Of a stretch of DNA of 24,000 bases, positions 4,421-24,000 are shown one piece after another (position 1 is the stretch's first letter; each line of letters begins with the position of its first letter). Under the pieces are notes generated by a model that did not search any database, was not told where the DNA came from, and worked only from the letters and a program-made list of their open reading frames with translations. Location of the stretch: contig CBDCJY010000018.1 in NCBI GenBank assembly GCA_965217985.1, forward strand, positions 32,634-56,633, in the 5' to 3' direction. This DNA comes from Pyrinomonadaceae bacterium (lineage in GTDB: Bacteria > Acidobacteriota > Blastocatellia > Pyrinomonadales > Pyrinomonadaceae). A program made the translations under genes and the position numbers.

Positions 4421-6490
4421 TTATTTTGCTCCGGCTGAAGAAATTTGTTTTTCACCGACGGGCGCGAGTTTCAGATATTGAGCGGACATATTTCGCCATT
4501 GCGGTTCGATTTTCCGGTTTTCGTAAATAGCGAGTAGATTCTTTTTGGCAGCCGTATTTTTTATTCGGTCAAGACCGCTTAAAGCAAGCAGACGTATTTC
4601 ACGGTCTTCGCTAATCATAAATATTTTTGAAACGGCGGCGGCGGTTTTTGCTCCGGCATTTTCACCGTTTTCGGCAATAAAAGCGAGCGATTTTTTGACT
4701 GCTTCAACGTCGCTGTCAATTTCCGGTCGGGCGGAATCACGCGCCGTTTCGCGCAGGAATCTTTCGTGAAATTCGAGTTGTCGGCGCAGGTCTAAACTTT
4801 CGTAAAGTTCGGGCGTAGCGGTTTCGCGGTGCGTATAAATACCGAATGAAAAAAGATGCGCCGCCGCATAGAGCATCCGGTCTTTGCCGCCGTGTCTGAG
4901 GCGAACCATTTCTTCGCGGCGGTCGTTTTCGATCTTTTTCGCCAAACCGTCGGGACGTTTCGCGTAAGCGATGAGATTTTCGTATTGCTTGCGGGCGATT
5001 CTTATTTCCGCATCGAAATCGTTTTCCAACGGATTGACGGCGACTTTTTCGAGCCGCGAATTTATCCGGTCTTTGAAATTTTCATCTATTGATTCGTTCA
5101 GCAACAGCAACAGTTTGAGCTGCGAATAAGAGTTCAGCCGCGAAGCCTGATTGTAATCAATCCCGCGCCGCGCGAGAACGAAATCGTAAACATAACGTCC
5201 GAAAAAATACGGCAGATTGCCGAACTTTGAAACCGAAAGAACATTTCGCGTCACGTCGTCCAAAACGCGTTTTGAAAGTTCGCGCATTCGCGGATTTTCA
5301 TTACTGCGAAAATCAACCAGAATCGCCGGAATTTTCGGGTAATCGAGACCGTAAAGCGCGAGCGGAATTAGAGTTTTCGCCTTCGCATTCGGTGTTTCCG
5401 GCGCGACTTCGCGGTCGTTTTCGTCATAAAAACGAATTTCTTTATAACCTTTCCATTTCGTCAGACGTTTGTCTCTCCACGGATTTTTGAAATTTAAAAA
5501 ACGCGAATCGAATTTTTTGTTTCGATTGTTTTTTAAGTCCGATTCGGCAACCCAGACGAGCGCGTGTGTCGCGCTGCCGTCAGGCATTTCAAGCGGCTCG
5601 AAATAAAGTCCCTGTTCTTCCGTATATTGACGAAGCAATTCCCAGTTGTGACCGCGATAATCGCGTGTTTTTTCGAGATTTTTGTGATAGACGCGGCTCA
5701 GATTTTCTTTCTGTAAAAACGATCCGGTGAAATTATCCGAAAGCATTACGCGCGCCTGTATGTCCTGAAGTTCGGTTTCGCTGAGAATCTTTTCGCCTTC
5801 GAGCGATTCGTAGAGCGTCAAAACGGCGAGCGCGCGCGTCATCGCCGCCTTTTGATAATTCATTTTGTTGCCGCTGTATTGAAGCGTCGAAGACCTGACA
5901 ACCGCGTCGAACTGTGACAGAACGAGACTTTTAAAGGCGATCCAAAAAATCTTGTTCCACATATTTTTGTCCGACGGCTTCAAATCCATTACCGCCGGCG
6001 GCGGATCGTTGCCGACTTTGCCTTTGTTGGAAAGTTTTTTATAAAGAAACGGAACGCCGGAAACTAATTTCTGAGCAAAAGAAGGATCGGTGTAATTCAG
6101 CATCCAAACATAACGCAGACGGTCGTTTTCAGCAATTTCATCGCCGAGCGTATCACGCAAAACGCTGACCAGCGGAACATCCTTTCCGTTTTCACCGCTT
6201 GCCCGATTCGCTCTGCTTAAATCGGCGAAAATCGTGATGAGTTCCGCGCCGCCCGCCACGCGAAATTTTTCGACGCGAAAATCGCGCCCGACTTCAAAGG
6301 CTTCGACGATTTTCGAATCATCGCTTTTCACCTTTGCCGCGCCGTTTTGAGAATTTTTTAACGTCTGCTGTTCGGCGGTGTTCTGCGCCGGCGTTAAATA
6401 TGGAAATATCGCCGTCATCAACAGACAATAAATTAACGCGAAACACGCCGGTTTCTTTTTGTATTTAAGGTTTATAAAATTCATAAACAT
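4421..6490 (-). CDS. large secreted hypothetical protein with a possible HEAT/ARM-like C-terminal end
   Basis: The ORF track calls 4421..6721, but the first 77 codons translate AT-rich DNA and run across a terminator hairpin (6695-6730). The ATG at 6490 (or 6484) gives MFMNFINLKYKKKPACFALIYCLLMTAIFPYLTPAQ, a convincing signal peptide. The gene is 36 bp upstream of the AlkP-like gene on the same strand. I recognise no family. Confidence 0.6.
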   Translation of the reverse strand: MFMNFINLKYKKKPACFALIYCLLMTAIFPYLTPAQNTAEQQTLKNSQNGAAKVKSDDSKIVEAFEVGRDFRVEKFRVAGGAELITIFADLSRANRASGENGKDVPLVSVLRDTLGDEIAENDRLRYVWMLNYTDPSFAQKLVSGVPFLYKKLSNKGKVGNDPPPAVMDLKPSDKNMWNKIFWIAFKSLVLSQFDAVVRSSTLQYSGNKMNYQKAAMTRALAVLTLYESLEGEKILSETELQDIQARVMLSDNFTGSFLQKENLSRVYHKNLEKTRDYRGHNWELLRQYTEEQGLYFEPLEMPDGSATHALVWVAESDLKNNRNKKFDSRFLNFKNPWRDKRLTKWKGYKEIRFYDENDREVAPETPNAKAKTLIPLALYGLDYPKIPAILVDFRSNENPRMRELSKRVLDDVTRNVLSVSKFGNLPYFFGRYVYDFVLARRGIDYNQASRLNSYSQLKLLLLLNESIDENFKDRINSRLEKVAVNPLENDFDAEIRIARKQYENLIAYAKRPDGLAKKIENDRREEMVRLRHGGKDRMLYAAAHLFSFGIYTHRETATPELYESLDLRRQLEFHERFLRETARDSARPEIDSDVEAVKKSLAFIAENGENAGAKTAAAVSKIFMISEDREIRLLALSGLDRIKNTAAKKNLLAIYENRKIEPQWRNMSAQYLKLAPVGEKQISSAGAK

Positions 6491-6690
6491 TTTACAGATG
6501 AATAAAATAATGCAAATATTAATGTTATTCAAATTTTCCGTATCGGCTGTATTACAGATTTCAATTTTCGTTAATACGTTGTAAAGAAAGAATTTGTTTT
6601 TTCGGCTGAAACGGAAAAAGTAAAAAACAAATCGGTAAATAACTATCTTACCCGAAAGATTATTAATCACGACCGAAAGAATCCAAAGCA

Positions 6691-6730
6691 GAAAAACGGA
6701 TGAACCTAAAAAATCTAACATTCATCCGTT
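6691..6730 (-). terminator. intrinsic terminator closing the radical-SAM operon
   Basis: The minus-strand RNA reads AACGGATGAA (6730-6721), a 16-nt loop, TTCATCCGTT (6704-6695), then TTTC. This is a perfect 10-bp stem, 85 nt downstream of the stop of the 303-aa radical SAM gene. Confidence 0.6.
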
Positions 6731-6814
6731 ATTTATTATACAGTTGTCTGATGTCTGTTTGACGCTTGCTTTTGCCGTTACAAACCGAACTTTTTAAGCC
6801 GATCAGCCTAAGAA

Positions 6815-7726
6815 TTAATTTTTTCCCGCAGCTTTTTTGAACGCTTCTTTCACCAAGAGTTTGGGCGAATTCATCGTCGCCATATAAAACGGCACGACGC
6901 AGCCGCATTTGTCGCAGTCGGCGTTGTCGCCCATCATACATTTGCCTTTATCTTTGCCGTCCGCACTAAGCGTAAACGCCTTTTCCTTGAACAGGCAATT
7001 ATCCGTAACTTTCTTAGAATTATGCGAACGCATCAGATCGAGCGTCGAATCGAGCATATTGATTTTGCGCTGATATTTCTTTTTAAGCTCGAAGATTTTA
7101 TCAATCATCGCATCGCGCTCGTCCCAATCGAGCCACAATGCTTCGTCGAGTTTATTGACCGGCGTAAAGAAATCGAAAATAATTCCGCCGCTCGCCAGGT
7201 CTTTCCATTCTTCGACCAAATCTTCGATGCAGTCTTTCGTCAAACTCGTGATGACGCACGAAATCTGGATTCGCAAATTCGGATGACGTTTGATGTTTTC
7301 CTTGATCTTGTTGTAAATGCCCGGTGCGCGCATTTTCTCGAACGCTTCTTCCGTGCCGTCAATCGAGATCACCCAAGTAACGTCCGTCCAGTCCGGCAAT
7401 TCCATCGTGCCGTTGGTGACGACCGTGTTATGTTTGAAATACTTGCGCCCGATGTCAATCAGAGGTTTTCGCACCATCGGTTCGCCGCCGACCCAAGTGC
7501 AGAGCAGCATCGGATCGCCCGCCGCTTTCATCGCTTCAAATTTTGCCGTCCATTCTTCGATGGTCAGTTCGCGCTCTTTATGTTCTTCGGCGAAAAAATA
7601 ACAATGCTCGCACCGCAGATTACAGCGTTTCGTAACATCAATCGAACCGACGGCGTTATCCGGCATTCCGAAAGCCATCAACTTTGCGAGACTGCCGATA
7701 TTATTTAAAGTTTTTTTAACTTTCAT
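6815..7726 (-). CDS. radical SAM enzyme with a C-terminal Cys-rich (auxiliary Fe-S, SPASM/twitch-like) motif
   Basis: 303 aa. It has the canonical CxxxCxxC in DVTKRCNLRCEHCYF, a GGEP motif (WVGGEPMV), and TNG and SIDG strands typical of the partial TIM barrel. The C-terminal cluster is CMMGDNADCDKCGC. Confidence 0.8.
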   Translation of the reverse strand: MKVKKTLNNIGSLAKLMAFGMPDNAVGSIDVTKRCNLRCEHCYFFAEEHKERELTIEEWTAKFEAMKAAGDPMLLCTWVGGEPMVRKPLIDIGRKYFKHNTVVTNGTMELPDWTDVTWVISIDGTEEAFEKMRAPGIYNKIKENIKRHPNLRIQISCVITSLTKDCIEDLVEEWKDLASGGIIFDFFTPVNKLDEALWLDWDERDAMIDKIFELKKKYQRKINMLDSTLDLMRSHNSKKVTDNCLFKEKAFTLSADGKDKGKCMMGDNADCDKCGCVVPFYMATMNSPKLLVKEAFKKAAGKN

Positions 7727-7800
7727 AAATTTTGATTCGATCTGAAAATTAATTTATTTATTTTTAAGAAAATTTCGAGTCGTATTTTCTAAATCGAATA

Positions 7801-8013
7801 TTACTGCTCGTCGTCGTCATCGTCAGTTTCTTTTTCGTAAATTAAATTTCCGCTTTCATCAATCGCATCTTTATCAACGTGTTCCTGCGGCGTTTTTTTG
7901 CCCGCAATCGGCGCGTGTTCGGGGTGTTCGCCTTCGATCTCGGCGGTTATTCCCTGTTTTTCGTTCTGCTCCAACGCTTTTTTATCCTGAGCAATATCTC
8001 TCTCGTCCGGCAT
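7801..8013 (-). CDS. small, highly acidic hypothetical protein (70 aa) ending in a poly-Asp tail
   Basis: The ORF has host-like codon style (CCG/GCG/ACG-rich third positions). GGGAGAG lies about 8 nt (8020-8026, minus sense) upstream of the ATG. The gene sits between the two radical SAM genes on the same strand. The sequence ends ...YEKETDDDDDEQ and contains no Cys. Confidence 0.5.
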   Translation of the reverse strand: MPDERDIAQDKKALEQNEKQGITAEIEGEHPEHAPIAGKKTPQEHVDKDAIDESGNLIYEKETDDDDDEQ

Positions 8014-8151
8014 AATTTTCTGTCTCTCCCTTTGTCTATTTTTATAAAATTCAGCCGCAGATTTCGCGGATAAACGCAGATGATTTTTTAAATTCCAAAT
8101 CCGCGTTCATCCGCCTTCATCCGCGGCTAAAAACTCTTTCAAATTTATTTA

Positions 8152-10113
8152 CTAAACCCCGACTGTTTCGTTTTCTTCTTCTTCGATTAAATAAGGCGTA
8201 ACCGTCGGTTTATCCAAATCTTCCTGCAAAACTTTGGCGATAATCGGAAGCGATAAACTGCGCGTTTTCGCAATGTTCGGAACTTCCTTGCCTTTCGCAT
8301 AAACGTCGTGCCGACCGTTATCTTTATACCATTCGGCAAGCGACGCGGTTTTGTTCATTTCCTCGACAATCTGCCGCCAGCCGACTCCGGTATTATACGC
8401 GCAAAATGAAATCTCGCCTTCCTGCGTGCCGTATGGAATGACGCACATCTCTGTGCGGCGAAAATCGTAGTTGAATAAATCCTGAAACCACATTCCTTCG
8501 ACGCACAGAACGCGCCATATATCATCGGTTTCGTTTTTCGGCTGTGCTTTCATTCGATCATTACGGTCAGAATTTGAATCAGCCGACGACGGTTTGAATA
8601 AGTTTAGAATCTGCGAAACGGGAAAGCCGTCGGGCGCGTTCGATGCGTCGTAATTACGCATAATCGCCATTCCCAACTGCGCCATCGTCAGCTTTTTGCC
8701 GCGAGCCGTGTCGGTAATCGTCGCCACGTCTCTCGTAAATTGCTCGTAGTTGAAAAAGTCGAACAAGGATGTCATCGCGCCCGTGTTTTTATTAACGACA
8801 ATCAAGGTGAAAATTCCGCAGTTCGGATGACAGTTGCAAGACGACCAACCCCACGGAGCGTCCGCGCCTTGCAGCATATCCATCACGCTTGTAAAAGCCG
8901 AATAGGACGAAAGCGGAAACCAATCGCGCAGCGGTTGAAGCGTTCCATCCAATTGATCTTTCAAATCGTGCGTCATTCCGGCGAGCGTGTAGCGTTGCTG
9001 GATGCGGTCTTTGTCGGAAACGTCTTCGTCGCGTCCGGTGAACGAAACGGGTTGAAAAGCAATGGTCTGAACTTTATCAATGTTCTGCGCGGCAAATTTC
9101 ACGATGTCGCCGATGGCATCGTTATTTATCGTATTAACAATCGTCGTCACGAGCGTAACTTTTATTCCAACGCTGGCAAGATTTTCAATCGCTTTTAATT
9201 TTACGTCGAACAAATTTCCAACGCCGCGATGTTTATTTTTCTCTTCCGATGTGCCGTCAAATTGCAGATAAACGCCGTGTTGTCCGGCTTCTTTTGCCGC
9301 TTTGCAAAACTCGATGTCTTCGGCGTAACGAATGCCGTTCGTTGCGGCTAAGATGCGGTAAAATCCGATCTTCTTCGCATATGCGACCGATTCCAAAAAA
9401 TGCGGCGCAATCGTCGGTTCGCCGCCCGAAAACAAAATGATAATTTGTCGTCGCGGTTTGAACGAAATCGCGTTATCAAGAATTTGTTTCGTATCTTCAA
9501 ACGTCGGTTCGTGAACGTAGCCGACTTGATTCGCGTCCATAAAACACGGGTTGCACATCATATTGCAGCGGTTCGTCAAATCAACCGTCAACACCGCGCC
9601 GCGTCCGAATTTGATGTCGGAAGTTCCGTGATGATGAACGTGCTTGTCTTCCGCCGCTTTGAAATCGCGCCCGTAAAAAAGCGATTCGATGCGTTCCAAA
9701 AACTTCGCATCGGTCGCCATCACGTCAACAAAATCGCCGTGCGTCGGGCAGGTTTTCTTCATCAGAACTTGCCCGTTTTCTTCGACAATCTGCGCTTTAA
9801 TCTCGCCCGGATGCGAGTTCATCAAAATCTCCAGCGGAATCGTTTTATCAATTACGCCGTTGCGAACATTTTTCACGCACGTCGGGCAAAGCGAATCCGT
9901 TTCGCGCGGAAAACCGAGCGGCGGCGCAGTGCGTTCATACGATTTCAAAAGCGGTTCAGCCGCCCAATTCGGCGTAATCGATTCGCCTTCGGGCAGAGAT
10001 TTATTAACGGCTTGAAACGCCTTCCAACCGATGTCGGCAAGTTTTGAAGCGGCTTTCGAGCCGGTTTTTCCTTTACCTTTTCCCTCACCGCGCCTGAAGT
10101 TATCACTAAACAT
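8152..10113 (-). CDS. large radical SAM enzyme with an N-terminal zinc ribbon and a C-terminal Cys-containing domain; resembles the Tes (tetraether lipid synthase) / MJ0619-type radical SAM family
   Basis: 653 aa. Motifs seen: CPTC...CPTHGDF (zinc ribbon), DLTNRCNMMCNPCF (CxxxCxxC), FSGGEPT, LQFDG, SSCNCHPNCG, and C-terminal MWFQDLFNYDFRRTEMCVIPYG...ISFCAYNTGVGWR. Radical SAM membership is secure. The Tes-like subfamily call comes from my recollection of the architecture and was not searched. Confidence 0.8.
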   Translation of the reverse strand: MFSDNFRRGEGKGKGKTGSKAASKLADIGWKAFQAVNKSLPEGESITPNWAAEPLLKSYERTAPPLGFPRETDSLCPTCVKNVRNGVIDKTIPLEILMNSHPGEIKAQIVEENGQVLMKKTCPTHGDFVDVMATDAKFLERIESLFYGRDFKAAEDKHVHHHGTSDIKFGRGAVLTVDLTNRCNMMCNPCFMDANQVGYVHEPTFEDTKQILDNAISFKPRRQIIILFSGGEPTIAPHFLESVAYAKKIGFYRILAATNGIRYAEDIEFCKAAKEAGQHGVYLQFDGTSEEKNKHRGVGNLFDVKLKAIENLASVGIKVTLVTTIVNTINNDAIGDIVKFAAQNIDKVQTIAFQPVSFTGRDEDVSDKDRIQQRYTLAGMTHDLKDQLDGTLQPLRDWFPLSSYSAFTSVMDMLQGADAPWGWSSCNCHPNCGIFTLIVVNKNTGAMTSLFDFFNYEQFTRDVATITDTARGKKLTMAQLGMAIMRNYDASNAPDGFPVSQILNLFKPSSADSNSDRNDRMKAQPKNETDDIWRVLCVEGMWFQDLFNYDFRRTEMCVIPYGTQEGEISFCAYNTGVGWRQIVEEMNKTASLAEWYKDNGRHDVYAKGKEVPNIAKTRSLSLPIIAKVLQEDLDKPTVTPYLIEEEENETVGV

Positions 10114-10561
10114 AATGTTTTAATTTAAAATACTGAATAAAAATTTTCGTTCTTTGATGCAGAAAATCAACGTCAAGGCTAACAAATAATTACTTTTTTT
10201 CCAAGTTTTATATGCAAAAGATTTAATTTTGCAGTGAAAATTTTATTTCTCCGAAAATTTTCTAAAAACTATTCATATTATTTAGAAGTTATCGGCACGT
10301 TAAAATGTGGATTTTCACACAAGATGACAAAACTAAAAATTGAGAAAAATTGAGATTTTTTGAAGACTTTGCTTTTCGGTTCTTATACTTTATTAATGCC
10401 CAAGTAAAGAACTCGGAAATTATTATAATTACATTATTTCAATCTTGCGTTCTTAACTAATGTATCGTTCTATTCAGGCTGATTTCGCCAGATTGAAAGT
10501 GGTAAAGAAAAACGGCGTAATAAAATAAATTCGAGAAAATATCAAAGGAAAATTCACATAA

Positions 10562-18928: not shown

Positions 18929-19735
18929 TCAAGATTCGTTCAAATAATTTGAAACGAATAATTCCTTGCCGTTTTGGTCGGAATTTTCGGCGACGTTTCT
19001 CATGCCATATTTTAAATCAAATGGAACTATGCGGGCGAAGGAAAATAAATCTCGAACATAATCGCTGTCGTCGTAAGTGATGAGCCATTTGTGCCAACAG
19101 GTTTTCATAGTTTCCGCAAATTTGATGTGGTCGAATGATTTATGCAGATGTCCGTTTTTGCCGTAAAGCGCAGATTTTGTTGCGGAATGATACGGCGGAT
19201 CGAGAAAAATGAAGACGTTTTCGCCGTCGCGTTTTACTAATTCTTTGTAGTCAAAATTTGTGATCGTCGTGCCGTTGACGACATCGGCGAATTCGTTTAA
19301 TCGCTGAATACTGCTTTCGGTAAATCTTCCCGTAAACGCGCCTTCGCTGAAACCGCCGCTCAGACTTGTTCCCGAAAACGTGATGCGGTTGTAAATAAAA
19401 AATGCCGCCGCACGTTCTAAATCGTTAAAACCTTCAAGATTTTGATTTAGAAATTTGTGCAGTTCTTTTCCGATTGGGAATTGCTCGCGCCATTCATAGA
19501 TTTTTTCGATGAGCGCGTCAACGTCTTTTTGCGTCATTTCCCAAAACTTATAAAGCTCAAAATAAAGATCATTCACCCAAAATTTTTTGTTCGGAAAACG
19601 CTGCTTCGCGTAAACGAAAACCGAACCGCCGCCGACAAACGGTTCTCTGTATTCGTCAAAATCGGGAATCAGCGCGGAAATAAATTTCACCGCCCGACTT
19701 TTTCCTCCGGGATAACGCAAAGGGCTTTTTATCAT
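18929..19735 (-). CDS. Dam-family (D12 class) N6-adenine DNA methyltransferase
   Basis: 268 aa with N-terminal PLRYPGGKSR, motif I EPFVGGGSVF, and motif IV FLDPPY. Target specificity cannot be read from the sequence. Confidence 0.85.
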   Translation of the reverse strand: MIKSPLRYPGGKSRAVKFISALIPDFDEYREPFVGGGSVFVYAKQRFPNKKFWVNDLYFELYKFWEMTQKDVDALIEKIYEWREQFPIGKELHKFLNQNLEGFNDLERAAAFFIYNRITFSGTSLSGGFSEGAFTGRFTESSIQRLNEFADVVNGTTITNFDYKELVKRDGENVFIFLDPPYHSATKSALYGKNGHLHKSFDHIKFAETMKTCWHKWLITYDDSDYVRDLFSFARIVPFDLKYGMRNVAENSDQNGKELFVSNYLNES

Positions 19736-19792
19736 TTTGAAAATTTTAACTTGACGACGAATTTATTCTCAATCTTTTCGTTGAAAAGCAAT

Positions 19793-19830
19793 AAAAAAGG
19801 ACGAAGCCAAAACTTCATCCTTTTTATTTT
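19793..19830. terminator. intrinsic terminator after the nuclease-like gene; second copy of the 14.7-kb hairpin
   Basis: AAGGACGAAG (19797-19806), loop CCAAAA, CTTCATCCTT (19813-19822), flanked by an A-run and TTTATTTTT. The single mismatch is C-A on the plus transcript but G-U on the minus transcript, so the hairpin is intact for the minus-strand operon that ends at 19869. Confidence 0.6.
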
Positions 19831-19868
19831 TGCTATGAACGAATATGAATTTCCTCAGATGAGTCTTT

Positions 19869-20537
19869 TTAAGGTGTGCCAATATTTTCGATGAAATCAA
19901 ACATTAGATGATATATCTTCAATTCGTCGCCGTTATTGTCTAAGTGAGTTGAATGATATTGGTAATCAAAGTTCGGTATGAAAGAATCTTTTGTTAAATA
20001 TTTAGTTGTGACTGGCGTTCCAAAATCTTTTAATAACTTGTTTATTTTTTTTGTGTTTGAATGAATATCCATTTTCTCAACGATAAATCCGATCATACCG
20101 TTTACTCTGTAATGTGAAGCATAGTAATTTGTGGTAAATCGAGACATTCCGTGTTCGATATATTTTGCGTTTAATCCACTTGTGCCTTTTGTAGCTTTAA
20201 TATCTAATCTTTTACATTCTATAATATAATATGCTTCTGTATTCTCAAATGTGTTGTGTGAAATCACTTTAATGTCAGTTCTTCCAACGGTTGAATCCTC
20301 TAAAGCTTCTCGTATGAAATACCAATGACTGAGTTGTAGTTGCTCCTTTAATTTATTGTTATTCAGATATTGTAAAAACATCACATCTCGGATTTTATTC
20401 TCATCATTTACTACAATGATATTGTCTGACTTCATTAGCCTATAGCAAAGTGTGATTTTTGAGAGCAAATCTTCAAAGCTCTCTTCGTAGAATACTACCG
20501 AATTACGATAAATTGTTGCGTCTAACTTATCAAACAT
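19869..20537 (-). CDS. PD-(D/E)xK restriction-endonuclease-like protein
   Basis: 222 aa. FIREALEDS...VGRTDIKV(x14)YYIIECKRL gives an E...D...ExK arrangement with spacing typical of the restriction-endonuclease fold. The start ATG (20537-20535) overlaps the stop (20532-20530) of the upstream methyltransferase gene within ATGTTTGA. The call rests on this motif only. Confidence 0.5.
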   Translation of the reverse strand: MFDKLDATIYRNSVVFYEESFEDLLSKITLCYRLMKSDNIIVVNDENKIRDVMFLQYLNNNKLKEQLQLSHWYFIREALEDSTVGRTDIKVISHNTFENTEAYYIIECKRLDIKATKGTSGLNAKYIEHGMSRFTTNYYASHYRVNGMIGFIVEKMDIHSNTKKINKLLKDFGTPVTTKYLTKDSFIPNFDYQYHSTHLDNNGDELKIYHLMFDFIENIGTP

Positions 20538-23500
20538 ATGCCTTGTGGGATTTACCTGCGGTCAGAATGGCATCCATAAATTCGCTTACGTCCAGATGTG
20601 CCATTGCCTTATGCCAAAGTTTTTGCTCATTTGGTCTGATAAGATAAAATCCATCTTGCTCAAACCCTCTAATGTCCTTTTGAACAAAGAGTCTGTCAGT
20701 AATTCTTTCAGTTCCGATTGAAATTAAGAAATTAAGAATAGATGCGCTTTCTTCTGTTTTTAGACGAAACGGAATTCTATCAAAATCGTAGGCGACTGTT
20801 TTAAAGAAGAGACCAATTATTTGTTCGGAGTATTGAATTTCAACTGTTAGCTTTTGATTCATTCTTTCAAAAATAGGATTTAGCTGGTTGAAAAATATGT
20901 TTACATATTCTCCAAGTTCCAAACTATTAGAGGCTAAAGGCTTGAACAAATCTTCATAGCTATCGTGTTTCATTATTATCGGAATCGTTACATTAACAGA
21001 ATAATCGAGAATATCCTTTTCCATTTCAGAAAAAGAGAAAGCAGAAATTACGGCAGAATCTAATTCTTTAATTTTCCTATCAACTTCAAACAAAGTATTT
21101 GAAGCAAAAATCCGTAATTCAGAATGTTCTAATATCTTCAAATCATTGATAGAAGACACAACAGATGCTATTTCAATACTTTCAATAAATGGGACAGTAA
21201 ATTTCTCAGAGTCATGTGATTCTTCACGTTCGATTCCTAACGAACTGAAAGTTTGCAACCCATAATATGAAAAAAATGAGGAATTCAATATTCCGCAAAT
21301 TGATTTGAGTAGTCCAATATTATCTGAATAACTCTTTATTGCCGTTAAAGAACTTCTAAATACTGCGTCTTTCTCATTTACTGCTGATACTGAACGAAAT
21401 GAGGTGTCATTTCCTCCAGTAATTAAGACAACGGGAGCTTCAAATATCTTTTTAACATCTTTCTTTGGTCTATGTGCTGTTTTTAGTTTCCACTTATTTT
21501 CAGGATTGGGATTTACCCAAAACGATTCAATATCTTTTCTGGTGTTAAGAAATGGTTTGCCAAGCAAATGAGCCGCGTCATTATTATCTCCGCCACCAAC
21601 CATTACTCCTTGCTTAGCAAGAAATTCAGTTTCGTCGGCAATTATATCGCCGATAGTAAAATATGAATGCTTATCTTTTAACCGTTTTATTAAATTGAAG
21701 TCTAAATAACTACCGTAAACTAAAATTTTCCACAGATAATCATAATCTTTTAAATTTTTCTGAGATACTTTTTTATAGTCGCCTCGATTGATAGTAAATA
21801 CCTTAAACATCGAAAAAAAACGGCTTGGCTTTAGCGTAATATGTTCGACAGTATTTTCATCAGTATTTTTATTTTCAGAGTATTGATAAAATAAAACCGC
21901 AGGTGGACCAATCGCTTTGTCATTCGATTTGTTAAAAACTTCTTTTCTTACAGGAGCAAGTTCAAGTATTTTCCTGATCGAAAATCTGTCCAACAAATAC
22001 TGCCTAAATCTTTTAGCTTTATCACTTATATTGTAAAAAATCTTGCTTGTTACGATTAAACTAATGTTAGTTTTAGGCGATGAAAAGTCACTTGTTCTTA
22101 ATACGAATGCTTGAGCAATCTCGGCATTGCTAATTTCAATTTTCTTCTCTCTGTTTTCCTTTGCCTCTAATTTTTTTCGGTTGTTAATATACTCGACAAA
22201 CTGCGGCTTTTTATCTTTTCCTTTCCCTCGTTTCCACGGCGGATTTCCCAAAATAAAATCAAAATTTACTTCTTTAAAATGTTCATTGAATTTTGCGTCG
22301 GTATCAAAAAAGTCTGATACGAAAAAATTGTTCTCAAACAAAAAAGGAAACTTGAATGTTTCAATGTCAGAAGGTTTCTGATAATCCAAAAGCGTTAAAT
22401 AAATGGAAAATATGGCTACGTTTACGGCACTTCTATCTTTATCTATTCCAAAGAGATTATTAAACGCAAGATTTTTTAATTCCTCTTTGTATTTAGCTTT
22501 GTTTTTTGAGTAGTTTGGGTTAGATTTTTGATATTGTTCTATAATTTTTCTGAGCGTTTCTACCAAAAAAACTCCTGATCCGCAGGCAGGATCAAGAACT
22601 TTGCAATCGAAACTTTCTTGCTGCTGAAATTTTTTCTCAACGGTTTCGGCAAGAATATAATCAACTAAAAACAGAGGTGTATAATAAGCACTTTGTTCTT
22701 CCTGTCCGACTTCACCGATGAAAAGCTCGTAAACATTGCTGATAAATTCAACCGGAATAATTGAAAAATCATAAAATTCAAACAAAGACTTTTGACCTGT
22801 AGATATGTAATCACCGGAAAGTAAATCTTTGATTACCGATAAACAATCATCGGATATTGAAGCAAATTGTTCTTCTGAAATCGGAAACAAATCTCCGTTG
22901 AATTTTCCCGTGAGATATTTGAAAAAATCTTCAAATTGCTCTTTATTGGCTAGAACTTCGCAAAATTCTTGATTTGTCCATTTTCTTGATTTGCCCTTTT
23001 GTTCAAAATCTAGTTTAACTTCTCGATCTATCAGGTATCGAACGAAAATTACTTTGCCGATGAGAGAATTCGCAAGTTCCGATGAGATTAACTTGTTAAT
23101 AAGAACATCTCGTGTTGCTTTAATATTAGACAAAAGATGAAAGTCAATCCTATTTTCCGAATCGAAATCCGATTGATATTTCTCCCAAGTTTTACCTATT
23201 ACCAAGTTGAAATAGTTAAAGTCGTTTAACTTTTCTTCTTTGCCCAAAAGCCGCAGAGTGTTTTGTTCAGTAAGGAATTGAAAACCGTTATAAATTTCTA
23301 CCGAATCTTGTTGAACTATTATAACAATGGGTGATTCATTAAAATTCCAAATTTCTCTAAGTTTAGCTTTTTTGTTTCTTAAGTTTTCAAAAAAAAGGAT
23401 AAATGGTTTGTTATCTATACAAAAAACTGCGTCCGGCTTAATGACGTTTGTTAATAGTTTTTCTATGCGGTTTGAGAAAAATCTTTTTCTGTTATCACCA

Positions 23501-23607
23501 GAAAAAAAGAGACCATTCTCCTTAGAAAGGTTCAATTTTTCCAGTATTTGATTCAGATGACTCAATAGTTTTCTCCTCTGTCGCATAATAATAACATTAT
23601 TTTGCAT
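20530..23607 (-). CDS. large gamma-class N6-adenine DNA methyltransferase of the Eco57I / type IIG / PglX-like kind
   Basis: 1025 aa with SAYYTPLFLVDYIL (aa ~305), motif I VLDPACGSGVFLVE, FGIDKDRSAVNVAIFSIYL, and motif IV FILGNPPWKRGKG. A C-terminal region of about 550 aa is a presumed target-recognition/helical region. The N-terminal ~130 aa has a nuclease-like strand pattern (KPDAVFCIDNKPFILFFENL) but no clean ExK. Confidence 0.8.
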   Translation of the reverse strand: MQNNVIIMRQRRKLLSHLNQILEKLNLSKENGLFFSGDNRKRFFSNRIEKLLTNVIKPDAVFCIDNKPFILFFENLRNKKAKLREIWNFNESPIVIIVQQDSVEIYNGFQFLTEQNTLRLLGKEEKLNDFNYFNLVIGKTWEKYQSDFDSENRIDFHLLSNIKATRDVLINKLISSELANSLIGKVIFVRYLIDREVKLDFEQKGKSRKWTNQEFCEVLANKEQFEDFFKYLTGKFNGDLFPISEEQFASISDDCLSVIKDLLSGDYISTGQKSLFEFYDFSIIPVEFISNVYELFIGEVGQEEQSAYYTPLFLVDYILAETVEKKFQQQESFDCKVLDPACGSGVFLVETLRKIIEQYQKSNPNYSKNKAKYKEELKNLAFNNLFGIDKDRSAVNVAIFSIYLTLLDYQKPSDIETFKFPFLFENNFFVSDFFDTDAKFNEHFKEVNFDFILGNPPWKRGKGKDKKPQFVEYINNRKKLEAKENREKKIEISNAEIAQAFVLRTSDFSSPKTNISLIVTSKIFYNISDKAKRFRQYLLDRFSIRKILELAPVRKEVFNKSNDKAIGPPAVLFYQYSENKNTDENTVEHITLKPSRFFSMFKVFTINRGDYKKVSQKNLKDYDYLWKILVYGSYLDFNLIKRLKDKHSYFTIGDIIADETEFLAKQGVMVGGGDNNDAAHLLGKPFLNTRKDIESFWVNPNPENKWKLKTAHRPKKDVKKIFEAPVVLITGGNDTSFRSVSAVNEKDAVFRSSLTAIKSYSDNIGLLKSICGILNSSFFSYYGLQTFSSLGIEREESHDSEKFTVPFIESIEIASVVSSINDLKILEHSELRIFASNTLFEVDRKIKELDSAVISAFSFSEMEKDILDYSVNVTIPIIMKHDSYEDLFKPLASNSLELGEYVNIFFNQLNPIFERMNQKLTVEIQYSEQIIGLFFKTVAYDFDRIPFRLKTEESASILNFLISIGTERITDRLFVQKDIRGFEQDGFYLIRPNEQKLWHKAMAHLDVSEFMDAILTAGKSHKAYV

Positions 23608-23873
23608 GCAATTTCACAGATGAAACAAAAAAACTTTACCATAACTTGTTTTTTACTTTAAATTCAAGTAGACAGAGTTTGCACCCACTGAATTATAAAT
23701 GTTCTCGCTTAGCTAACATCTGTAAATATTTTTACCATTCTAATTTACGTTTTAATCAAAGTTGACTAGAATAGCGTTAATTAACTATTGTCTTTAATTG
23801 ATTTGTGTTTTAAACGCCAACTGTTATTCGGCGAGCAAAATTAATTCGATAAATATAATAATTCAAAATATGA

Positions 23874-24000
<127 letters not shown>

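What the first reader, a model, noticed from the sequence alone, without database searches (positions are those of the whole stretch)
6691..10113. Compact three-gene radical-SAM module: Tes-like 653-aa enzyme, 70-aa poly-acidic ORF, second 303-aa radical SAM
Seen in the sequence:
- Three co-directional genes run from a 448-bp AT-rich control region (10114-10561) to a perfect 10-bp terminator hairpin (6695-6730), which suggests one transcription unit (a weak 5-bp hairpin at 8101-8126 between the first two genes is unlikely to terminate it).
- The large enzyme has a CPTC...CPTHG zinc ribbon, a CxxxCxxC radical SAM core, and a C-terminal CNCHPNCG ... MCVIPYG ... FCAYNTGVGWR domain.
- The small enzyme has its own CxxxCxxC plus a C-x7-C-x2-C-x-C tail.

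From established knowledge, as I recall it, the zinc-ribbon plus radical-SAM plus C-terminal-domain layout is that of the archaeal tetraether lipid synthase Tes and the MJ0619-type pterin methyltransferases. Bacterial Tes homologues have been proposed, but not functionally resolved, as makers of membrane-spanning (brGDGT-type) lipids.

My inference is that this could be a bacterial C-C bond-forming lipid-tail or cofactor-modification module. I do not recognise a described system with this partner set (a second auxiliary-cluster radical SAM and an acidic mini-protein). No glycerol-lipid, polyprenyl or pterin genes are adjacent, so the substrate is open.
Basis: partly seen in the sequence, partly recalled or inferred. 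Interest (0 to 1): 0.72.

Follow-up and report, generated by a model that had tools for sequence, protein, structure and literature searches.

The report
Bacterial Tes-like lipid enzyme locus
A soil or freshwater acidobacterium (family Pyrinomonadaceae) carries a bacterial relative of the archaeal enzyme that fuses two lipid tails into membrane-spanning lipids, followed by a conserved 69-70-residue acidic protein and a small uncharacterised radical SAM enzyme; each partner recurs with the big gene in related genomes, but the three together are not a conserved module.

Summary

- **653-aa protein.** It is a full-length homologue of tetraether synthase Tes/GDGT-MAS (NCBIfam Tes 322 bits, curated cut-off 450; PDB 7TOL E=7e-69). 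All 26 bacterial relatives sampled lack the three Cys of the archaeal N-terminal [4Fe-4S] cluster. They keep the other metal sites, Met439 and Tyr459.
- **Prior knowledge.** Acidobacterial Tes homologues have been proposed as brGDGT or iso-diabolic-acid candidates since 2022 and remain untested.
- **The trio is not conserved.** Among 32 unbiased Pyrinomonadaceae loci, the 303-aa radical SAM follows Tes in 3, the small ORF in 3, and both in none.
- **The pairs are real.** The 303-aa gene co-diverges with Tes (r=0.98). The small ORF is under purifying selection and lies 35-53 nt after Tes elsewhere.
- **303-aa enzyme.** It has a Twitch-type fold (best match SkfB). It is not Gms and has no B12 domain. 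Its distant relatives lie in lipid and envelope clusters.
- **Hairpin.** The "weak 5-bp hairpin" is a 29-bp, -47.5 kcal/mol inserted hairpin, so a single transcript is doubtful.

Verdict: a known kind of locus with two undescribed, lineage-restricted partners. Interest is moderate.

The parts
10114..10561 (.). AT-rich (26% GC) divergent intergenic region upstream of the Tes-like gene. It presumably holds the promoters for the Tes-like gene (minus strand) and for the 756-aa surface-protein gene (plus strand).
   Evidence: Composition; sequence. The sigma-70-like matches do not exceed the shuffled expectation, so no promoter is demonstrated.
8152..10113 (-). 653-aa bacterial Tes/GDGT-MAS-family radical SAM enzyme (the 'type A' Pyrinomonadaceae clade).
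   Evidence: Pfam Zn_ribbon_HMPTM plus Radical_SAM. NCBIfam NF045702 Tes scores 321.8 bits over profile positions 2-482 of 486, with a cut-off of 450. PDB 7TOL matches at E=7e-69 over residues 105-597. Homologues in Pyrinomonadaceae are 85-98% identical.
9715..9912 (-). Rubredoxin-like zinc-ribbon domain (residues 68-133) with CPTC...CPTH. It corresponds to C9X2C12...C33X2H36 of GDGT-MAS.
   Evidence: Pfam PF23545 at 54.6 bits. C33 and H36 are invariant in the 26 bacterial homologues aligned; the CPTC pair lies upstream of the aligned 7TOL stretch and is read directly from the sequence. Ligand numbering comes from PMC9433317.
9091..9579 (-). Radical SAM core (residues 179-341) with CNMMCNPC. 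The segment just upstream of it (residues ~147-170) lacks the three Cys of the archaeal [4Fe-4S]N cluster.
   Evidence: Pfam PF04055 at 80.1 bits. A 10-residue deletion removes C73, C77 and C80 in all 26 bacterial sequences.
8323..8856 (-). C-terminal auxiliary-cluster and lipid-pocket domain (residues ~420-597). It carries CNCHPNCG, the GMWF Met, MCVIPYG and FCAYNT.
   Evidence: Positions aligned to 7TOL C338, M439, C455, Y459 and C470 are invariant. C438 is replaced by G and C456 by V or I.
8050..8131 (-). Long RNA hairpin (13 + 16 bp stem, including G-U pairs on the sense strand) followed by GAAUUUUAU. It is inserted between the Tes-like gene and the small ORF. It is a possible terminator, attenuator or mRNA-stabilising element.
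   Evidence: dG -47.5 kcal/mol, z -7.5, none of 200 shuffles as stable. Absent from L003, L004, L102 and L104, where the gap is 35-53 nt. No Rfam match. No second copy in the window or in the loci fetched.
7801..8013 (-). 70-aa acidic, Cys-free, strongly hydrophilic small protein (pI 4.2), preceded by an AGGGAGAG ribosome-binding site. It belongs to a conserved ~69-aa family restricted to Pyrinomonadaceae.
   Evidence: 225 clusters at 90% identity, all about 69 aa. 21 invariant columns. L002 versus L003 differ by 17 synonymous and 2 non-synonymous codons, 19 of 22 differences fall at third positions, and there is an in-frame 2-codon indel. The gene lies directly after Tes in L003, L004, L102/L103 and L104 and after the 303-aa radical SAM gene in L088. 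No Pfam or NCBIfam match.
6815..7726 (-). 303-aa radical SAM enzyme ('rs2') with CX3CX2C at residue 35 and a C-terminal auxiliary-cluster motif (C244, C263, C271, C274, C276 invariant). Twitch-type fold.
   Evidence: Pfam Radical_SAM only; no NCBIfam model comes near its cut-off. AF2 model pLDDT 88.6. Best PDB match is SkfB (TM 0.66), then anSME, SuiB and GDGT-MAS. The family is small: 87 clusters at E<1e-30 among 1.8 billion representatives. It lies downstream of the Tes-like gene in L008, L017, L024, L030, L082, L083/84, L098 and L100/101.
6695..6730 (-). Terminator-like hairpin (10-11 bp stem, 16-nt loop) followed by UUUUUC, 84 nt after the rs2 stop codon.
   Evidence: Sequence; fold. The stem is in the MFE and centroid structures, but the 130-nt region as a whole is not significantly stable (z -1.5).

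Best explanation
The locus belongs to a Pyrinomonadaceae (Acidobacteriota, class Blastocatellia) genome.

- **653-aa protein.** It is a bacterial member of the Tes/GDGT-MAS radical SAM family. By homology, it abstracts a hydrogen from the terminal carbon of a lipid tail with 5'-deoxyadenosyl radical. It parks the substrate radical on its C-terminal [4Fe-4S] cluster, whose three Cys, labile Met and nearby Tyr are all conserved. It then couples that carbon to a second tail. In this lineage the inferred substrates are iso-C15 acyl or alkyl chains of glycerolipids. The inferred product is an iso-diabolic-acid-type membrane-spanning lipid, the brGDGT precursor class.
- **69-70-aa acidic protein.** It is a genuine, selected gene that is normally translated from the same message, 35-53 nt after Tes. 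I infer that it is an accessory or regulatory partner of the enzyme.
- **303-aa Twitch-type radical SAM.** It is a lineage-restricted accessory enzyme that has co-diverged with the Tes gene at this locus. I infer that it performs a further radical modification on the same lipid class, on either tail or head group. The reaction is unknown.
- **This genome.** An ~85-nt hairpin has been inserted after the Tes gene. It probably terminates or attenuates transcription, so the two small genes may be expressed at a different level from Tes.

Shown here: homology, conserved ligands, gene linkage and purifying selection. Inferred: substrate, product, and the roles of both partners.
For: Tes family assignment:
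- Tes is the best family, matched over its full length. 7TOL matches at E=7e-69.
- The rubredoxin C33/H36 positions, the radical SAM Cys triad, C338, C455, C470, M439 and Y459 are invariant in 26 bacterial homologues.

Lipid context of bacterial Tes-like genes:
- lptD-lpxB-lpxD-lpxA lie divergently upstream in at least 16 Pyrinomonadaceae loci.
- A gene resembling phosphatidylinositol-phosphate synthase (a CDP-alcohol phosphatidyltransferase) lies directly downstream in L051 and L058.
- An HpnR-like B12 radical SAM gene is adjacent in L049, L056 and L079.

Organism:
- Blastocatellia have iso-C15:0 as their main fatty acid and make iso-diabolic acid (PMC12816986; PMC13159169).
- No mss homologues were found in Acidobacteria, so the tail-coupling enzyme there is still missing.

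Small ORF:
- (selection, family size, position after Tes).

303-aa radical SAM (rs2):
- It is adjacent to Tes in eight distinct contexts, ten loci in all.
- Tes and rs2 identities correlate at r=0.98 over those ten loci, two pairs of which are the same contig from different sources.
- Relatives at 47-49% identity sit in lipid and envelope clusters. One has an HpnN-like RND transporter, an MprF-like flippase, a PIP-synthase-like gene, an inositol-dehydrogenase-like gene, TolC and MlaC. The other has PagL, B12 radical SAMs, a PIM/lipid-A-type acyltransferase, ACP and FabD.
Against: - No bacterial Tes homologue has been shown to make any lipid (PMC11868695; PMC13459092).
- The protein scores below NCBI's Tes cut-off (322 against 450) and lacks one of the three archaeal [4Fe-4S] clusters.
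- Tes homologues were reported in only 3 of 14 iso-diabolic-acid-producing acidobacteria under stringent criteria.
- Most Pyrinomonadaceae Tes loci have neither partner (26 of 32), so neither can be essential to the enzyme.
- The slot downstream of Tes is variable. It also holds Uma2 endonuclease genes, an antitoxin fragment, secreted proteins and ABC permease genes. Adjacency there is weaker evidence than in a fixed operon.
- One rs2 homologue (L099) has no Tes gene within 6 kb.
- No lipid genes flank the trio in this window.
- The inserted hairpin may uncouple transcription.
Confidence: 0.45

Rival explanations
1. Only the Tes-like gene matters. The small ORF and the 303-aa radical SAM are unrelated passengers in a recombination-prone slot downstream of it, each with its own function, and the 'module' is a positional accident.
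For: - The trio occurs only in this window. In the unbiased genome scan, 26 of 32 loci have neither partner and none has both.
- The same slot holds Uma2 endonucleases, an antitoxin fragment, secreted proteins and MacB/FtsX genes in other genomes.
- Gene order differs between close relatives: Tes-small-rs2 here, rs2-small in L088, and Tes-Uma2-rs2 in L098.
- L099 has rs2 without Tes.
Against: - rs2 has stayed at this locus while both genes diverged from 96% to 78% (Tes) and from 89% to 69% (rs2), with r=0.98.
- In L083 only about 30 nt separate the Tes and rs2 genes.
- The small ORF is found next to Tes, or next to rs2, in every context examined, despite different outer flanks.
- Distant rs2 relatives are again in lipid clusters, and those clusters share gene families (c107 PIP-synthase-like, c46 B12 radical SAM) with neighbours of Tes-like genes in other phyla.
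Confidence: 0.27
2. The small ORF is a ribosomal peptide precursor, and the 303-aa radical SAM (whose closest solved fold is the RiPP maturase SkfB), and/or the Tes-like enzyme, modifies it.
For: - A short ORF next to radical SAM enzymes is the classic RiPP layout.
- The best structural match of rs2 is SkfB, and its weak NCBIfam hits include PapB, ScmE, WgkB and StsB.
- rs2 and the small ORF are directly adjacent in the window and in L088.
Against: - The small protein has no Cys and is conserved along its whole length rather than split into leader and core.
- It mostly occurs without rs2 (L002-L004, L102-L104), and rs2 mostly occurs without it (L008, L017, L024, L030, L082, L083, L100).
- No peptidase, transporter or RiPP recognition element is nearby.
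- All rs2 scores to peptide maturase models are 43-49 bits against cut-offs of 340-650.
- The Tes family has a lipid pocket.
Confidence: 0.07
3. The 653-aa protein is not a lipid enzyme but a cofactor (pterin) methyltransferase, as MJ0619 was first annotated and as JGI still names many of these homologues.
For: - JGI labels several homologues '7,8-dihydro-6-hydroxymethylpterin dimethyltransferase'.
- The Pfam domain name is Zn_ribbon_HMPTM.
Against: - The authors of the MJ0619 structure could not reproduce the pterin activity and showed lipid C-C coupling with bound lipids (PMC9433317).
- No pterin or methanopterin genes are adjacent here or in the related loci.
- The neighbours are lipid A, phospholipid head-group and HpnR-like genes.
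Confidence: 0.04

Closest known systems
Archaeal tetraether synthase Tes / GDGT-MAS (MJ0619; PDB 7TOL/7TOM)
   Same: - Same domain order: rubredoxin-like zinc ribbon, radical SAM core, C-terminal auxiliary-cluster and lipid-pocket domain.
- The match is E=7e-69 over about 490 residues.
[quoted passage not shown]
   Different: - It scores 322 bits against the equivalog cut-off of 450.
- A 10-residue deletion removes the three Cys of the N-terminal [4Fe-4S] cluster.
- C438 and C456 are replaced.
- It carries an N-terminal extension of about 70 residues.
- The host is bacterial and makes fatty-acid rather than isoprenoid lipids.
- Its activity is untested.
Bacterial (acidobacterial) Tes homologues proposed for brGDGT synthesis (Zeng et al. 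2022, PMC8941075; Halamka et al. 2022, PMC10087280)
   Same: - It belongs to the same bacterial clade. Homologues from Bryobacteraceae, Latescibacterota and Blastocatellia give the same Tes scores (298-323 bits) and have the same Cys deletion.
- The proposed role is the same.
   Different: - Those papers did not describe a 69-aa partner or a 303-aa radical SAM neighbour.
- The Pyrinomonadaceae clade is unusually conserved, with 89% mean column identity.
tes + gms gene clusters in Acidobacteria and Planctomycetes (Garcia et al. 2024, PMC11214058); GMGT synthase Gms (Li et al. 2024, PMC11186832)
   Same: A SPASM/Twitch-subfamily radical SAM gene sits next to a Tes homologue, which suggests a second radical step on the same lipid.
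   Different: - Gms is longer than 400-420 aa and has an N-terminal six-helix domain and a full SPASM domain with two auxiliary clusters.
- rs2 is 303 aa, its radical SAM motif starts at residue 35, and it has one C-terminal Cys cluster.
- It would have been excluded by the published length filters.
- It shares only the radical SAM core with the 449-aa SPASM neighbour of Tes in L066.
Membrane-spanning lipid synthase Mss (Thermotoga, Thermoanaerobacter; PMC13159169)
   Same: It is a bacterial radical SAM enzyme that couples fatty-acid tails, which is the reaction inferred here.
   Different: - It is a different family: no Tes homologue in Thermotoga and no mss homologue in Acidobacteria.
- I could not compare sequences because no Mss sequence was available to the tools.
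SkfB (PDB 6EFN), a Twitch-domain radical SAM
   Same: It is the best structural and sequence match of rs2 in the PDB (TM 0.66; E=2.6e-8). It has a radical SAM core plus a single C-terminal auxiliary cluster.
   Different: - Identity is 21%.
- SkfB has an N-terminal peptide-binding domain and acts on a Cys-containing peptide.
- rs2 has no such domain, and no suitable peptide partner co-occurs with it consistently.

Membership tests
Tes / GDGT-MAS (NCBIfam NF045702 equivalog) | Whole-protein score at or above the curated cut-off (450 bits). | tested here: not met
   321.8 bits, although the match covers profile positions 2-482 of 486. Three other bacterial homologues score 298-323 bits.
Tes / GDGT-MAS | Rubredoxin-like mononuclear iron site CX2C...CX2H. 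| tested here: met
   CPTC...CPTH, Pfam PF23545 at 54.6 bits. C33 and H36 are invariant in 26 bacterial homologues.
Tes / GDGT-MAS | Radical SAM CX3CX2C cluster. | tested here: met
   CNMMCNPC; PF04055 at 80.1 bits.
Tes / GDGT-MAS | N-terminal auxiliary [4Fe-4S] cluster ligated by C73, C77, C80 and a His. | tested here: not met
   The three Cys lie in a 10-residue deletion in the window protein and in all 26 bacterial homologues aligned. Only the His column is kept.
Tes / GDGT-MAS | C-terminal auxiliary [4Fe-4S] cluster with the labile Met439, plus the strictly conserved Tyr459. | tested here: met
   C338, C455, C470, M439 and Y459 are invariant. Which Cys residues ligate the cluster in 7TOL was not stated in the text I could read, so the match is by alignment only.
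Tes / GDGT-MAS | Catalyses Csp3-Csp3 coupling of two lipid tails. | not testable with these tools
The literature says bacterial homologues are unconfirmed.
Tes / GDGT-MAS | Overall fold and lipid pocket as in 7TOL. | tested here: inconclusive
   The AF2 model has pLDDT 52 because the permitted alignment is 86-96% identical. No fold search was made on it.
GMGT synthase Gms (for the 303-aa protein) | More than 400-420 aa, with an N-terminal six-helix domain before the radical SAM core. | tested here: not met
   303 aa with CX3CX2C at residue 35. Gms architecture comes from PMC11186832.
GMGT synthase Gms (for the 303-aa protein) | Full SPASM domain with two fully Cys-ligated auxiliary clusters. 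| tested here: not met
   There are only five invariant C-terminal Cys (C244, C263, C271, C274, C276). The best fold match is the one-cluster Twitch enzyme SkfB.
GMGT synthase Gms (for the 303-aa protein) | Direct sequence similarity to a characterised Gms. | not tested
   No Gms sequence or model was available. NCBIfam shows no Gms model among the hits.
B12-binding radical SAM lipid modifiers (Grs, Gmm, Ted, HpnP/HpnR) | N-terminal cobalamin-binding domain (PF02310). | tested here: not met
   Pfam finds Radical_SAM only in the 303-aa protein.
SPASM/Twitch radical SAM subfamily (for the 303-aa protein) | Radical SAM core followed by a C-terminal Cys-rich auxiliary-cluster domain. | tested here: met
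   The invariant motif is C-x7-C-x2-C-x-C. The confident model (pLDDT 88.6) matches SkfB, anSME, SuiB and CteB.
Mss (bacterial membrane-spanning lipid synthase) | Sequence homology to T. maritima or T. ethanolicus Mss. | not tested
   No Mss sequence was accessible. The paper reports no mss homologues in Acidobacteria.
RiPP precursor plus radical SAM maturase pair | Precursor and maturase co-occur consistently, and the precursor carries the modifiable residues. | tested here: not met
   In the unbiased scan the small ORF and rs2 never occur together, and overall they are adjacent only in the window and L088. The small protein has no Cys.
Conserved three-gene operon (the finding's 'module') | All three genes are co-conserved in related genomes. 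| tested here: not met
   None of 32 unbiased type-A loci has both partners, and none of 28 type-B or other-phylum loci has either.

The most novel reading that the evidence does not exclude
The 303-aa protein founds a new class of B12-independent, single-auxiliary-cluster radical SAM enzymes. These would modify bacterial membrane-spanning (iso-diabolic-acid or brGDGT-type) lipids made by the Tes-like enzyme. Candidate reactions are ring closure, chain bridging, or a head-group rearrangement. The 69-aa acidic protein would be a dedicated partner that bacterial Tes enzymes of this clade need for activity or regulation. Together they would explain part of the structural diversity of acidobacterial lipids used as climate proxies. 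They would also suggest why bacterial Tes homologues are still unconfirmed as lipid enzymes.
Probability: 0.2. Interest if true: 0.75.

Novelty: new variant of a known kind. Interest (0 to 1): 0.5.

Why it matters
Branched GDGTs are widely used proxies for past temperature and pH, yet the acidobacterial enzyme that joins two iso-C15 chains is still unidentified. Mss is absent from Acidobacteria, and bacterial Tes homologues remain untested.

This locus offers three things:
- It adds a very strongly conserved Tes homologue from Blastocatellia, a class that makes iso-diabolic acid.
- It shows that the whole bacterial clade has lost one of the three archaeal Fe-S clusters.
- It names two concrete, previously undescribed candidate partners to include in expression experiments.

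It also shows that the partners are optional. Their presence or absence across isolates could therefore be matched against known lipid differences.

Tried and rejected
- **AF2 model of the 653-aa protein.** It is unusable, so no fold search was made on it.
- **Foldseek against afdb50** for the rs2 model. The library was not available.
- **Metagenome scan with rs2.** It returned only 10 loci, mostly short contigs or a ~33%-identical subfamily next to KaiC-like ATPases. It was useless for adjacency statistics, apart from L088.
- **Rfam.** There was no credible match for the hairpin or anywhere else in the window. No tRNAs were found.
- **A second copy of the hairpin.** None was found in the window or the loci, and the repeat finder missed the hairpin itself.
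- **Supplementary table S21 of PMC13159169 and the 2014 subdivision-4 lipid paper (PMC4136120).** Neither is held. The statement that some subdivision-4 species have 5-methyl and ether-bound iso-diabolic acid therefore rests on my memory only.
- **The ~200-aa family (c15) that often follows Tes.** I considered it as a diverged relative of the small ORF and rejected that. It is a secreted protein with a C-terminal membrane segment and is unrelated.
- **rs2 as Gms, as a B12 methylase or as HpnH.** All three were rejected on architecture and scores.
- **Lipid genes flanking the trio in this window.** None was found.

Full report
**1. What is in the sequence**

Three minus-strand ORFs lie at 8152-10113 (653 aa), 7801-8013 (70 aa) and 6815-7726 (303 aa).

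- The upstream intergenic region 10114-10561 has 26% GC, against 42% for the window. It is shared divergently with a 756-aa surface-protein gene.
- Downstream of the 303-aa gene lies the hairpin AACGGATGAA/TTCATCCGTT plus a U-run at 6730-6695.
- The gaps are 138 nt between the Tes-like gene and the small ORF, and 74 nt between the small ORF and the 303-aa gene.

The 'weak 5-bp hairpin' between the first two genes is the core of a 29-bp hairpin spanning 8131-8050. It has dG -47.5 kcal/mol and z -7.5, and none of 200 shuffles is as stable. GAAUUUUAU follows it. Aligning this junction with four related loci shows that the ~85-nt element is an insertion. Elsewhere the Tes stop codon and the small ORF's ribosome-binding site are only 35-53 nt apart. 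The element has no Rfam match and no second copy in the sequence I hold. A single transcription unit is therefore plausible for the ancestral gene pair but uncertain in this genome.

**2. The 653-aa protein**

- Pfam finds the HMPTM-type zinc ribbon and a radical SAM core.
- The best NCBIfam family is tetraether lipid synthase Tes, at 321.8 bits over profile positions 2-482 of 486. This is below the equivalog cut-off of 450.
- The best solved structure is GDGT-MAS from M. jannaschii (7TOL), at E=7e-69 over residues 105-597.

MJ0619 is that same protein. Its crystallographers could not reproduce the earlier pterin-methylase claim (PMC9433317).

I aligned the 7TOL sequence with the window protein and 25 further bacterial homologues, 26 bacterial sequences in all. 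They come from Acidobacteriota, Gemmatimonadota, Latescibacterota and other lineages.
- Invariant: the rubredoxin C33 and H36, the radical SAM Cys triad, C338, C455 and C470, the labile Met439 and Tyr459.
- Lost: the three Cys of the archaeal N-terminal [4Fe-4S] cluster (C73, C77, C80). They fall in a 10-residue deletion in every bacterial sequence.
- Replaced: C438 and C456.

Three other bacterial homologues score 298-323 bits against the Tes model. The window protein is thus a typical member of a distinct bacterial subfamily that probably carries two rather than three [4Fe-4S] clusters. An AF2 model was too poor to use (pLDDT 52).

**3. Organism and prior knowledge**

The closest homologues are 85-98% identical and are labelled Pyrinomonadaceae, Blastocatellia or Chloracidobacterium MAGs. 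Within that clade the protein is extremely conserved, with 89% mean column identity.

- Blastocatellia have iso-C15:0 as their main fatty acid and contain iso-diabolic acid (PMC12816986; PMC13159169).
- Bacterial Tes homologues, including acidobacterial ones, were reported in 2022 and proposed for brGDGT synthesis (PMC8941075; PMC10087280).
- Mss, the confirmed bacterial tail-coupling enzyme, has no homologue in Acidobacteria.
- As of 2025-2026 the activity of bacterial Tes homologues is still unconfirmed (PMC11868695; PMC13459092).

The Tes-like gene itself is therefore a known kind of candidate.

**4. Is the trio conserved?**

A scan of one genome per GTDB species returned 80 loci with Tes-like genes at 98-49% identity. 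I searched them with all three proteins.

| Set of loci | Number | 303-aa radical SAM ('rs2') after Tes | Small ORF after Tes | Both | Neither |
|---|---|---|---|---|---|
| 'Type A' loci (at least 66% identity) with 1.5 kb or more downstream | 32 | 3 | 3 | 0 | 26 |
| More distant loci (a second Pyrinomonadaceae clade at ~52%, and other phyla) | 28 | 0 | 0 | 0 | 28 |

Two further type-A loci with shorter flanks also carry rs2. The three-gene module as such is seen only in this window.

**5. The pairs are nevertheless real**

Starting from rs2 homologues, the 66-89% identical ones lie downstream of a type-A Tes gene in L082, L083/L084, L098 and L100/L101. Only L099 is an exception. In L083 about 30 nt separate the two genes. 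Across the ten co-located pairs, Tes identity (78-96%) and rs2 identity (69-89%) correlate at r=0.98. This fits long vertical co-inheritance at this locus with repeated loss. Genomes with and without rs2 interleave along the identity scale.

The small ORF is a genuine gene.
- It forms 225 clusters at 90% identity, all about 69 aa, with 21 invariant columns.
- There is an in-frame two-codon indel.
- Third-position bias is strong: L002 versus L003 differ by 17 synonymous and 2 non-synonymous codons.
- It sits directly after Tes in L003, L004, L102/L103 and L104, although the outer flanks differ.
- It sits after an intervening Uma2 gene in L002.
- It sits immediately after rs2 in L088.
- It has no Cys, pI about 4.2-4.4 and GRAVY -1.5 to -1.8. 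It is probably disordered.
- The poly-Asp tail is specific to this copy.

**6. What is the 303-aa enzyme?**

- Its family is small, with 87 clusters at E<1e-30 among 1.8 billion representatives.
- No NCBIfam model comes near its cut-off; the best is PTO1314 at 53 bits against 306.
- Invariant features are CNLRCxHCYFF at residue 35, CTWVGGEP, and a C-terminal C...C-x7-C-x2-C-x-C motif.
- A confident AF2 model (pLDDT 88.6) matches the Twitch enzyme SkfB best (TM 0.66). anSME, SuiB, GDGT-MAS, CteB and BlsE follow.

This matters because Garcia et al. 2024 already reported that SPASM/Twitch-type Gms homologues cluster with tes in Acidobacteria (PMC11214058). rs2 fails the Gms architecture. Gms is longer than 400-420 aa, has an N-terminal six-helix domain and carries two auxiliary clusters (PMC11186832). 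rs2 has no N-terminal domain and one Cys cluster. It shares only the radical SAM core with the 449-aa SPASM neighbour of Tes in L066, which looks like the published type. rs2 also has no B12 domain, unlike Grs, Gmm, Ted and HpnP/HpnR.

Its 47-49% identical relatives in other phyla sit in lipid and envelope clusters.
- In L086 and the P0390 context, the neighbours are an HpnN-like RND transporter, an MprF-like flippase domain, a phosphatidylinositol-phosphate-synthase-like gene, an inositol-dehydrogenase-like gene, TolC and MlaC.
- In L085 and L087 (L087 is from a Desulfuromonadaceae MAG; L085 has no taxon label), the neighbours are PagL, three B12 radical SAMs, a SPASM radical SAM, a GT2, a deacetylase, a PIM/lipid-A-type acyltransferase, ACP and FabD.

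Two of those neighbour families also flank Tes-like genes elsewhere. The PIP-synthase-like gene does so in L051 and L058. The B12 radical SAM does so in L049, L056 and L079, where it is HpnR-like at 339 bits. This network supports a lipid substrate for rs2. It does not say whether the enzyme acts on the tail or the head group.

**7. Context of Tes-like genes in general**

In the ~80%-identity Pyrinomonadaceae group the gene lies next to lptD-lpxB-lpxD-lpxA. The window's own flanks are unrelated to lipids. They hold an alkaline-phosphatase-superfamily protein, an unknown 688-aa secreted protein, a surface protein, SelO and KatG.

The slot downstream of Tes is variable. In different genomes it holds Uma2 endonuclease genes, an antitoxin fragment, a secreted ~200-aa family and MacB/FtsX genes. 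This weakens guilt by association.

**8. Explanation and rivals**

| Reading | Confidence |
|---|---|
| Tes-family lipid tail-coupling enzyme making iso-diabolic-type membrane-spanning lipids, with a conserved small partner and an optional Twitch radical SAM that further modifies the same lipid class | 0.45 for the whole statement; about 0.65 for the Tes part alone |
| The partners are unrelated passengers in a variable slot | 0.27 |
| A RiPP system | 0.07 |
| A pterin methylase | 0.04 |

The RiPP reading is disfavoured because the small protein has no Cys and its co-occurrence with rs2 is poor.

**9. Verdict**

- The core enzyme is an already-known candidate class.
- What is new is modest but concrete: two undescribed, lineage-restricted partners, and the clade-wide loss of one Fe-S cluster.
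- It is best classed as a new variant of a known kind.
- Interest is 0.5. It is useful for people trying to prove how Acidobacteria make brGDGT precursors, but it is not categorically new.

Noticed in passing
window 8050-8131 (minus strand): An ~85-nt element forms a 29-bp hairpin (dG -47.5 kcal/mol, z -7.5). It is inserted between the Tes-like gene and the small ORF and is absent from four related loci. It contains G-U pairs only on the sense strand and tandem GCGGATGAA motifs. No Rfam family matches it and no second copy was found.
   Followed up: partly
window 9600-9680 (residues ~147-170 of the 653-aa protein); loci L002-L081: All 26 bacterial Tes-like proteins aligned lack the three Cys ligands (C73, C77, C80) of the archaeal N-terminal [4Fe-4S] cluster, through a shared 10-residue deletion. 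They keep every other metal site. I did not find this stated in the papers I read.
   Followed up: yes
L012, L013, L016-L018, L021, L023, L027-L030, L041, L083, L100 (upstream of the Tes-like gene): In many Pyrinomonadaceae genomes the Tes-like gene lies divergently next to lptD-lpxB-lpxD-lpxA, the lipid A synthesis and transport genes. The window's copy has lost or never had this context.
   Followed up: partly
L049:8052-9536, L079:7987-9504, L056:2239-3726: In Gemmatimonadota and Latescibacterota MAGs a B12-binding radical SAM gene sits next to the Tes-like gene. Its best hit is the hopanoid C-3 methylase HpnR (339 bits, cut-off 650). It is a candidate methylase of membrane-spanning lipids.
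   Followed up: partly
L066:8271-9620: A 449-aa radical SAM/SPASM protein with its CX3CX2C motif at residue 126 lies 222 nt after a 'type B' Tes-like gene in a Blastocatellia MAG. Its architecture fits the published acidobacterial Gms homologues and differs from the window's 303-aa enzyme.
   Followed up: partly
L051:7700-8590, L058, L086:6109-6882: The same phosphatidylinositol-phosphate-synthase-like CDP-alcohol phosphatidyltransferase family follows Tes-like genes in two MAGs. In another lineage it precedes a distant relative of the 303-aa enzyme, together with an HpnN-like transporter, an MprF-like flippase domain, TolC and MlaC.
   Followed up: partly
L002, L082, L088, L098 (between Tes and the 303-aa gene or small ORF): Uma2-family endonuclease genes recur in the slot downstream of the Tes-like gene, and gene order there differs between close relatives. 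This suggests a recombination-prone spot.
   Followed up: no
L098:850-2807: The Tes-like gene of this contig is split into three frame-shifted pieces that are 80-96% identical to the window protein. It is either a pseudogene or a long-read assembly error, while the adjacent 303-aa gene is intact.
   Followed up: no
window 4421-6721 (minus strand): The mechanical 766-aa ORF runs over the terminator hairpin. The real start is probably the ATG at 6487, which gives a signal-peptide-like N-terminus (MFMNFINLKYKKKPACFALIYCLL...). The 688-aa product has no Pfam or NCBIfam match.
   Followed up: partly
window 18929-23607 (and the low-GC stretch ~19500-24000, 31-36% GC): A D12-class adenine methyltransferase gene, a 222-aa ORF of unknown function and a 1025-aa Eco57I/MmeI-type restriction-modification fusion protein gene lie in a block of much lower GC than the rest of the window. 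The block is probably a horizontally acquired defence island.
   Followed up: no
L090-L096: A ~33%-identical subfamily of the 303-aa enzyme is always followed by a KaiC/GvpD-like ATPase of about 510 aa and a small gene on the opposite strand. This is a different and unexplained association.
   Followed up: no
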